Positions 47,501 through 50,500 of a stretch of DNA of 64,000 nucleotides are shown in pieces. This stretch comes from Octopus vulgaris. Its lineage: Eukaryota. The first letter of the stretch is position 1, and every line of letters begins with the position of its first letter. The translations under genes and the position numbers were made by a program. A model generated the notes under the pieces. That model made no database searches. It saw nothing but the letters and a program-made list of their open reading frames with translations, and had not been told where the DNA came from. The stretch is from NCBI GenBank assembly GCA_951406725.2, contig OX597820.1, forward strand, positions 13,826,001 to 13,890,000, in the 5' to 3' direction.

Positions 47501-50500
47501 GAGAAGACATGTCATTGATGAGTTCATGTCACTGATGAGGACTTTGACAAACTTAGCTGATTGATTAAATGATCGAATGATTAATTAACCCTTTCGTTAC
47601 TGTATTTATTTTGAGATGCTCTGTGTTTCTCTCAATTACTTTAAATATAACAAAGAATTTAGCAAAATAACTTAGTTATCATTAAGCTAGTGTACATCAT
47701 CATCATTTAGTGTCCGCTTTCCATGCTAGCATGGGTTGGACGGTTCAACAGGGGTCTGGGAAGCCAGAAGGCTGCACCAAGCCCAATCTGATCTGGCAAT
47801 GTTTCTACAGCTGGTGTTAGGAACATAAATTGTGACTAAGGTTTGGTGGAAGATTTTAATTCAAAACTTATGAAAACAAGACATTTGTACCCAGAACCGG
47901 TTTCAGCCGGTTTGGTAACAAAAGGGTTAATCAACCACTAAATTAATTGGCCAAATTGTTAAGCAACAGTCAAACAAAAACAACAAAACAGAAATAATAC
48001 ATTTCTAAATCTCTCAGAGAGATTTAAAAAGTAGTTACACAATAAAGTGATGGTATGTTGTCAACTTAATTTGATAGTCCCATGAAAGGGAAGAATGCTA
48101 CTGTTATTTAGCCCTAGGAAACACCGTTTCCTGTTGGACACATTCCTTGTATCCTTATACTTGTCTCCACTTTGAAAACACAAGGACACAGGAAATGCAT
48201 CAAGTCCAACAAGAAACAGTGTTTCCTAGGGCTAAATAACAGTAGCATTCTTCCCTTTCATGGGACTGTCACATTAAGTTGACAACATACTATCAAAACC
48301 AACAAAGTGTAATAGAACCTCTGTGTGTTTATTACTGGCATAATGACCCTCCTTTAATTTTAGATTTTTTCCGGTTTATGTATTAAGACAAAAGCTCTGT
48401 GTAATGCCATTTCCTTTTAAAGGTGACTAATTCCCTGTTTCAAGAAAGACAATTGGTATAAAGTAAGAAGACAAAAGTTCTGAAGGTTAAACAAGATGTT
48501 CGTCAATATCACCTGTTTGTTTTGCTGTCACGGGACCATTTCTTGAGTTGTGAAAGTTTGTTGACCAGGAATATACCGATTCCACGAGCTGAAGAGATAA
48601 AAAATGCATTGTAAACATCTTCATTAATTGTATATCATATTTCTTTACTGCCCACAAGGGGCTACACACAGAGGGGACAAACCAGGGTAGACAAATGGAT
48701 TAAGTCAATCACATCGACCCCAGTGCATAACTGGTACTTATTTAATCAACCCCGAAAGGATGAAAGGCAAAGTTGACCTCGGCAGAATTTGAACTCACAA
48801 CGTAACAGCAGACGAAATACCTAACTCTTTACTACCCACAAGGGGCTAAACACAGAGAGGACAAACAAGGACAGACAGACGGATTAAGTCGATTACATCA
48901 ACCCCAGTGTGTAACTGGAACATATTTAATCGAAAGGCAAAGTCGACCTCGGCAGAATTTGAACTCAGAACATAGCAGCAGATGAAATACCGCTAAGTAT
49001 TTCGCCCTACGTGCTAACGTTCCTGCTAGCTCGCCACCTTAGTATAATTAATTGTATATCATGGGCATTCTTATGTCTTGCGACTGGACTAAGCAGATGA
49101 AACCTGAAAGAGGCCCATTGTATATCTGTCTATCTAACCTGTTTCCAACTAAGATCATTTTTTCCCCAGTTGCTGGACATGTTTTCACAAATGTTTGGAA
49201 ATGAAGGGCACTGCTTGTATGACATTTACAACAATCACATGATACCAAGACAATGAGATACCAACTCACATGCATATATCATCATCATCATCGTCTAACA
49301 TCTGCCTTCCATGCTGGCATGGGTTGGATGGTTTCACAAGACCCGACCGGGCAGAAGTCTGCACCAGACTTCTGTAACTGTTTTGGCAGGATTTTTACGG
49401 CTGAATGCCCTTCCTAACACCAAGCACAGTGGACTTAGTGCTTTGTATGTGACACAAGCACAGTTTTGGCAAGGTTTTTACAACTGGACACCCTTCCAAA
49501 CACCAACTACTTAACAGTGAGGATTGGGTGCTTTTAAGTGGCATCTGCACTGACATGGTCACCAAGTACTTGCAAGACAAAGAAACAGAAGAAACACATA
49601 TATACATGATGGGCTTCTTTCAGTTTCCACTCACAAGGCTTTGCTTGTTCTGGAGCTATAGTTGAAGATGCTTGACCAAGATGCCTCGCAGTGGAACTGA
49701 ACTTGGAACCGAGTGGTTGGGAAACATACTTCTTGACCACACAGCCATGGCAGCATTAATTTTAATCCAGTATTTCTGTGAGAGCTAATGGTAATGTGCA
49801 GTCTAGTACAATCTCTAGCATGGTAGAGTTATCCATGATTAAAGCAGTTTTCCAACCAAGGTAACTTGGTGTGGAGGGCAGAAAAAACCCAGCAGGACAG
49901 AAATAATACTTATTAGAACGACAAATGAGGCCCAAGAAGAGTCACTGCATTAGAAATTCTGTTCCAACAACTCCTTATTCCAGCGGCGAACACCATAGAC
50001 ATGGGGGCCTGGAACCTGACCTAGGCCCCCATGTCTATGGCGTTTGCCACTGGAATAAGAAGTGGTTGGAGATCACGCGGTCGTTAGCCTCAAATCGCCA
50101 GGCCTGGTCGGTGTTTGTGAGAGATGCAGCATTGAGGATGAATGAAGCCAGCTCAACCCACCCCAGGTGAATGCTGTCGCAAGCAAGCAAGAAGAAGAAA
50201 TTCTGTTTTGGTGTCTTGCATGTTTTAAGATCCACTGGATGTGAGGCATCCCTTAGCTTTTATCATCATCAGCCCCTGGGAATTATTGTCTCAAGTTCTA
50301 AGGCTCATAGGGTCAGTTACCCAGATACCAAATTGCTTAAGTGACAGAAATCATGGTCTGTTCTCCCTGAACGGAATACCAGTCTATTGCAAGGTCATTC
50401 ATTTACAGCTGAGGAAATTGGAACAATGTAAAATGAAGGGTTCTGATCAAAATCACAACACGCTGCCCAATCCGTAATTGAAACCACGATCTTGCAATCA

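What the first reader, a model, noticed from the sequence alone, without database searches (positions are those of the whole stretch)
48513..48588. TTLL1 with an initiase-type active-site loop (ARGIG instead of AQGKG)
Seen: the spliced sequence reads [13 protein letters not shown] (codons GCT CGT GGA ATC). Established, from memory of TTLL6 structure-function work: Gln at this position (TTLL6 Q180) marks chain-elongating glutamylases and Arg marks initiases; C179A/Q180R/R182I were among substitutions shifting TTLL6 toward initiation; TTLL4 has ARGIG and vertebrate TTLL1 has AQGKG. The second determinant region here remains TTLL1-like (EVNASPSLT), and exon 3 has HVEITRKD versus HYELTRKD. Inference: this orthologue may have convergently switched to branch initiation, changing the neuronal or axonemal tubulin code.
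Basis: partly seen in the sequence, partly recalled or inferred. Interest (0 to 1): 0.7.

Follow-up and report, generated by a model that had tools for sequence, protein, structure and literature searches.

The report
Invertebrate TTLL1 with initiase-type arginine
This octopus tubulin-modifying enzyme carries an arginine where the vertebrate enzyme has glutamine, but so do most molluscs, worms, starfish and sea squirts sampled, so it is no octopus novelty; the arginine version likely favours starting glutamate chains, which is untested.

Summary
The window holds a single-copy Octopus TTLL1; exon 4 (ends 54698) and exon 5 (48588-48513) splice to [13 protein letters not shown], and R143 aligns with TTLL6 Q180. 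Arg stands here in 42 of 43 named genera of spiralians, invertebrate deuterostomes and an acoel, and in 2 of 2 ctenophores. Gln stands in 31 of 31 vertebrates, 24 of 26 arthropod entries and 9 of 9 named cnidarians. Trees and parsimony place Arg in the spiralian and chordate ancestors, make the vertebrate Gln a reversion, and need 5-6 changes in all. Every Arg-type row has Ile or Val two residues on (30 of 30). By the published TTLL6 rule the Arg form likely leans toward branch initiation. However, His67, the second elongase residue proposed for TTLL1, is kept, and I found no assay of an Arg-type TTLL1. Verdict: an ordinary gene in octopus that exposes a family-wide, apparently unreported toggle of a specificity residue; the function is untested.

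The parts
48513..48588 (-). TTLL1 exon 5: (A)[24 protein letters not shown], second half of the beta5-beta6 active-site loop
   Evidence: spliced to exon 4 in one X2 contig
48584..48586 (-). Arg143 codon (CGT), equivalent of TTLL6 Q180
48578..48580 (-). Ile145 codon (ATC), equivalent of TTLL6 R182; Ile or Val in all Arg-type rows
54698..54802 (-). exon 4, ending WIMKPCGK plus the first base of the Ala142 codon (phase-1 intron follows)
56018..56160 (-). exon 3, with His67 (56138-56136; equivalent of TTLL1 H68, proposed second elongase residue) and Val68
58355..58464 (-). first coding exon (ATG at 58464)
56767..56832 (-). exon 2
46099..46233 (-). exon 6 (KFDLR)
45305..45413 (-). exon 7 (HLTN)
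41393..41473 (-). exon 8
39837..39899 (-). exon 9
37198..37238 (-). exon 10
27338..27383 (-). exon 11, ending at the catalytic Glu325
25484..25593 (-). exon 12, with Ala328 (25587-25585), equivalent of TTLL6 H362
24692..24745 (-). exon 13
23480..23596 (-). last coding exon (tblastn span; exact ends not fixed)
   Evidence: 97% to residues 381-419 of P0001/P0002

Best explanation
This is the single octopus TTLL1 gene, whose Arg-type loop is shared with most sampled spiralians and invertebrate deuterostomes and was likely inherited from their ancestors; the arginine likely tilts the enzyme toward starting glutamate branches while some chain extension is predicted to remain. Shown: sequence, splice, orthology, alignment of A142/R143/A328 to TTLL6 C179/Q180/H362, and the distribution of states. 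Inferred by tree and parsimony: Gln outside animals; Arg in the spiralian and chordate ancestors and probably the bilaterian one; Gln regained in vertebrates and probably in arthropods; Arg probably gained separately in ctenophores, one hexacoral-like sequence and phylloxera. Inferred by analogy with TTLL6 crystal structures: Arg is long enough to hold the backbone carbonyl of an unbranched acceptor so that its gamma-carboxylate is ligated, and Ala328 leaves no His to pair with the acceptor carboxylate. His67 may still do that job, hence a mixed or initiation-leaning enzyme rather than a pure initiase.
For: Alignment to TTLL6 wild type and to the engineered initiase 6VZQ, which is the top sequence hit by 4 bits because it shares the Ala-Arg pair. 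The paper calls Q180 the main determinant and reports Q180R/H362I nearly as effective as the triple mutant. Named genera: Arg in Mollusca 11/11, Annelida 7/7, Echinodermata 9/9, Platyhelminthes 6/6, Tunicata 3/3, Ctenophora 2/2 and one each of brachiopod, bryozoan, hemichordate, amphioxus, acoel and orthonectid; Gln in Vertebrata 31/31, named Cnidaria 9/9, Arthropoda 24/26. Distant TTLL1/TTLL9 representatives: Gln 114, Arg 6, of 129 with the loop among 146. With loop columns removed, tunicates (Arg) group with vertebrates (Gln) at 98/85, and 0 of 200 bootstrap trees allow a single change. Arg at the spiralian, deuterostome, chordate and tunicate-plus-vertebrate nodes is the shortest reconstruction in 4 of 4 species trees, by 1-2 steps. 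Ile/Val follows Arg in 30 of 30 rows, against Val in 9 and Ile in 0 of 27 Gln rows. The genome keeps Gln-type enzymes at two other loci (SQGKG, CQGKG) that could extend chains.
Against: No activity data for an Arg-type TTLL1 turned up in eight literature searches. In the sections read, the single Q180R mutant is not reported; the switch needed H362I too. His67 is invariant in 57 of 57 rows and Ala328 is shared with vertebrate TTLL1, so no second-site change accompanies Arg. TTLL1 works only within a multi-subunit complex, which may set its specificity. The Arg-Ile coupling is not significant on independent pairs (3 pairs on well-supported branches, p 0.5). The bilaterian ancestral state is tied under the Xenambulacraria trees. 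A clade of bilaterian Arg forms is not rejected (p-AU 0.126).
Confidence: 0.6

Rival explanations
1. The Gln/Arg toggle is nearly neutral in TTLL1: the enzyme elongates in all animals because His67 and the partner subunits fix the specificity.
For: His67 invariant, Ala328 unchanged; at least 5-6 changes of state, plus Cys in Lineus and Ser in a second planthopper copy; TTLL1 is inactive alone and poorly characterised in vitro.
Against: Each state is held almost without exception inside whole phyla; Arg is always followed by Ile/Val; the paper reports this residue separating initiases from elongases among both glutamylases and glycylases.
Confidence: 0.3
2. Hidden paralogy: an early duplication gave an Arg-type and a Gln-type TTLL1, and lineages kept one or the other.
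For: Bilaterian Arg forms held as one clade are not rejected (p-AU 0.126); deep branches of the gene tree are weak.
Against: All Arg forms as one clade are rejected (p-AU 0.0007); tunicates join vertebrates at 98/85 and the Arg-type P0038 joins Gln-type hexacorals at 100/99; no named genus shows both states; one TTLL1 in this genome.
Confidence: 0.07
3. One reading: a recent, octopus- or cephalopod-specific convergent switch to initiation.
For: The motif is real and differs from vertebrate TTLL1.
Against: Arg in 11 of 11 mollusc genera and 42 of 43 genera of the wider group; Arg is the shortest state for the spiralian ancestor in 4 of 4 trees.
Confidence: 0.02
4. Mis-splicing or a skipped alternative exon creates the motif, and the true transcript carries Gln.
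For: The Ala codon is split by a 6.1 kb intron; transcript support is one low-depth contig.
Against: The Arg codon lies wholly in exon 5; no look-alike exon among 58 candidates or in the genome; identical annotated proteins in three species.
Confidence: 0.01

Closest known systems
Vertebrate TTLL1 (catalytic subunit of the tubulin polyglutamylase complex)
   Same: Orthologue: about 68-74% identity, same clade, same Ala at the C179 and H362 positions and same His67/68.
   Different: Loop ARGIG instead of AQGKG (33 of 35 vertebrate hits; AQGRG in 2). The vertebrate enzyme is classed as an elongase.
Annotated TTLL1 of Octopus bimaculoides, O. sinensis, O. vulgaris
   Same: 0 differences over the 379 residues assembled here.
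   Different: Only the C-terminal exon differs among these records.
Engineered TTLL6 initiase C179A/Q180R/H362I (PDB 6VZQ/6VZR/6VZS)
   Same: Ala-Arg at 179/180 and no His at 362; same fold, TM-score about 0.68-0.69.
   Different: Ala rather than Ile at 362, Ile rather than Arg at 182, a retained His67, about 27% identity, and dependence on partner subunits.
TTLL4/TTLL5 initiases
   Same: Arg at the switch position (for the human set).
   Different: A different subfamily; the TTLL4-like locus of this genome reads ARGKG and EVNISP (the label TTLL4 rests on recalled motifs), so the Ile at +2 is not a copy of the local TTLL4.

Membership tests
TTL/TTLL ATP-grasp ligases | TTL domain (PF03133) and fold | tested here: met
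   PF03133 exon hits at this locus; model pLDDT 87.5 matches TTLL6 at E 4e-30
TTL/TTLL ATP-grasp ligases | Catalytic and nucleotide-binding residues (Lys of KP, KFDLR, HLTN, EVN) | tested here: met
   K137, K193/D195/R197, H238/T240/N241, E325/N327 invariant in 71 of 71 rows and aligned to TTLL6
TTLL1 orthologues | Nests among named TTLL1 proteins; single copy | tested here: met
   one locus in the genome; no named TTLL9 was included as outgroup
TTLL1 orthologues | Acts within the polyglutamylase complex | not tested
   Partner subunits were not searched for in this genome; requirement taken from PMC13376646
Elongase-type TTLL (Mahalingan rule) | Gln at the Q180 position | tested here: not met
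   Arg143
Elongase-type TTLL (Mahalingan rule) | Side chain able to neutralise the acceptor carboxylate (H362 in TTLL6, H68 proposed in TTLL1) | tested here: met
   His67 present, matching His68 of lizard TTLL1; its position in space was not measured
Initiase-type TTLL | Arg at the Q180 position | tested here: met
Initiase-type TTLL | Ile at the H362 position as in TTLL4 | tested here: not met
   Ala328, as in all TTLL1 rows
Initiase-type TTLL | Forms gamma-linked monoglutamate branches on unmodified tails | not testable with these tools
   needs enzyme assay and tandem mass spectrometry

The most novel reading that the evidence does not exclude
TTLL1 was a branch-initiating or dual enzyme in early bilaterians and still is in molluscs, annelids, flatworms, echinoderms, amphioxus and tunicates; the long-chain elongase of vertebrate neurons arose by an Arg-to-Gln reversion at the origin of vertebrates, and the same residue has flipped at least five times in animals, mostly together with the residue two places on.
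Probability: 0.4. Interest if true: 0.62.

Novelty: new variant of a known kind. Interest (0 to 1): 0.36.

Why it matters
TTLL1 is filed as an elongase on the strength of the vertebrate sequence and one residue rule. If the rule holds, that label is wrong for many invertebrate phyla, and long neuronal glutamate chains made by TTLL1 would be a vertebrate reacquisition. If it does not hold, TTLL1 is a natural exception to a rule proposed for the whole family. Either way the natural Arg/Gln pairs (tunicate against lamprey, P0038 against Actinia at 88% identity) give a clean test. For octopus itself there is nothing special.

Tried and rejected
Octopus-specific switch: rejected. Alternative Gln-type exon or second TTLL1: none found (genome searches score only the best candidates). 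RNA editing at the loop: the Arg codon has no editable A, the one covering contig shows no change, and the five exonic differences seen elsewhere are all synonymous; contigs drop rare variants, so low-level editing is not excluded. No run was on record as RNA; a second lay on exon 5 alone found no cover in 4 of 4 runs, which is no evidence either way. Synteny check: vertebrate gene models fused to neighbouring genes matched only the TTLL1 exons in the window, so no synteny evidence. Coupling of Arg with Ile on independent pairs: too few pairs. A link between Arg and motile ciliated epithelia was considered and dropped, since vertebrates, cnidarians and sponges have such cilia with Gln (own knowledge). 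Fold search cannot tell initiase from elongase: wild-type and mutant TTLL6 score alike. Earlier findings of the scan: none by words or by sequence. No priapulid, nematode, rotifer or choanoflagellate TTLL1 with a name came up in the lists shown.

Full report
Observation. The window carries a minus-strand TTLL1 gene. Thirteen exons from 58464 to 24692 join to an open frame of 379 residues, and a last exon lies at about 23596-23480. The 379 residues show 0 differences from the annotated TTLL1 of three Octopus species. Exon 4 ends AAA G|gt and exon 5 begins ag|CT CGT GGA ATC GGT, so the loop reads [13 protein letters not shown] with Arg at 143. None of the other 57 candidate exons between exons 4 and 6 resembles it, and exon 5 has one match in the genome. 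One contig of run X2 carries exons 4 and 5 end to end without differences; four runs laid on exon 5 alone did not cover it.

Position. Against solved structures the protein aligns A142-R143 with TTLL6 C179-Q180 and A328 with H362; the best sequence hit is the engineered initiase mutant. The predicted model (pLDDT 87.5) matches wild-type and mutant TTLL6 equally. In the preprint 10.1101/2020.06.07.139295 (passages and sections 9-12 read; supplements not seen) Q180 is the main determinant, human TTLL1 is classed as an elongase from its Gln, and the switch mutant is C179A/Q180R/H362I. C179 is not critical, R182I adds nothing, and H68 is proposed to stand in for H362 in TTLL1. The octopus enzyme keeps His67, the H68 equivalent.

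Distribution. I read the loop in the best 120 of 2427 relatives, the best 120 of 258 from a loop-centred search and named cluster members. Pooled by named genus (the mostly vertebrate hits and the extra vertebrates were left out as redundant), Arg is found in Mollusca 11/11, Annelida 7/7, Echinodermata 9/9, Platyhelminthes 6/6, Tunicata 3/3, Ctenophora 2/2 and the single brachiopod, bryozoan, hemichordate, amphioxus, acoel and orthonectid. The one nemertean has Cys. Gln is found in Vertebrata 31/31, named Cnidaria 9/9, Arthropoda 24/26 (phylloxera Arg, a second planthopper copy Ser), a sponge, a tardigrade and two algae. The orthonectid and tardigrade proteins were not placed on a tree, so their orthology is assumed. 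An unnamed protein, P0038, which clusters with Actinia TTLL1, has SRGIG. Among 146 distant representatives, a mix of TTLL1 and TTLL9, 129 cover the loop: 114 Gln, 6 Arg, 9 other. Gln therefore looks like the older eukaryotic state.

History. With the loop columns removed, a 58-row tree needs 6 changes and a 34-row mixture-model tree needs 5, with no bootstrap tree of 200 allowing a single change. Tunicates (Arg) join vertebrates (Gln) at 98/85 and P0038 (Arg) joins Gln-type hexacorals at 100/99. All Arg forms as one clade are rejected (p-AU 0.0007), but bilaterian Arg forms as one clade are not (p-AU 0.126), so hidden paralogy is disfavoured, not excluded. On four species trees written from my own knowledge, the shortest reconstructions put Arg at the spiralian, deuterostome, chordate and tunicate-plus-vertebrate nodes, by margins of 1-2 steps. 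The bilaterian node is Arg in two trees and tied in two. Octopus thus inherited Arg, and vertebrates regained Gln. Arg is followed two residues on by Ile (27) or Val (3) in 30 of 30 rows, while Gln rows carry Lys 12, Val 9, Ala 4, Arg 1, Ser 1; this is suggestive but not significant on independent pairs.

Genome context. A TTL-domain search found 20 exon matches at 8 loci, one of them this gene. Three other loci show the loop: ARGKG, SQGKG and CQGKG, which I label TTLL4-, TTLL9- and TTLL6-like from recalled motifs. No Gln-type TTLL1 paralogue was seen, and Gln-type enzymes that could extend chains remain.

Mechanism. Shown: an intact TTLL1 with Arg at the switch, Ala at the H362 position and His67 retained. 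Inferred from TTLL6 structures: Arg can reach the carbonyl of an unbranched acceptor and favour isopeptide formation, whereas His67 may still support elongation. I therefore commit to an initiation-leaning or dual enzyme, about 0.55-0.6, against an unchanged elongase at about 0.3. TTLL1 is inactive alone and was once thought to do both reactions (PMC13376646, passages); it has not been well characterised in vitro (PMC12366701, passages); mouse work treats it as an elongase with caveats (PMC9022812, passages).

Novelty. Eight searches (listings and abstract openings only, except the four papers above) showed no report of Arg-type invertebrate TTLL1; the library lacks most subscription papers. 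The gene is a plain member of a known family and nothing about it is peculiar to octopus. The wider pattern, a specificity residue flipping several times within one orthologue group with vertebrates as the derived case, is a modest and directly testable variant of a known system.

Noticed in passing
window 22334-22363 (-): Ten residues identical to the C-terminus of the O. vulgaris record P0003 lie downstream of the main last exon, suggesting an alternative 3' splice form (E 0.24).
   Followed up: no
L003/L008 (G000:C1 about 95.52 Mb): The TTLL4-like gene of this genome has ARGKG, not ARGIG.
   Followed up: partly
P0158 (Lineus), P0226 (Nilaparvata second copy), P0246/P0380 (phylloxera): Further states at the switch position: ACGVG, SSGSG and SRGVG.
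   Followed up: partly
P0360, P0361, P0280 (non-animal or unnamed): Arg-type loops also occur in an unnamed divergent protein (SRGIG), a Marchantia model named TTLL9 (ARGRG) and an unnamed fragment (ARGIG).
   Followed up: no
window 56133-56129 (-), exon 3: Tyr next to His67 is replaced by Val or Met in most molluscs and Phe in some flatworms; the Ile in EITRKD was seen only in cephalopod-type rows.
   Followed up: partly
window 45359, 46137, 56073, 56088, 58402: Five exonic differences in run contigs, all synonymous.
   Followed up: yes
window 9100-9588 (+): A 163-residue open stretch of ordinary protein-like composition downstream of TTLL1, not identified.
   Followed up: no
window 48645-49040 and other intron stretches: High-copy interspersed repeats flank exon 5 and swamp contig depth.
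   Followed up: no
P0121: An unnamed 686-residue protein holds two tandem TTLL1-like N-terminal halves, each with a Gln loop; possibly an assembly chimera.
   Followed up: no
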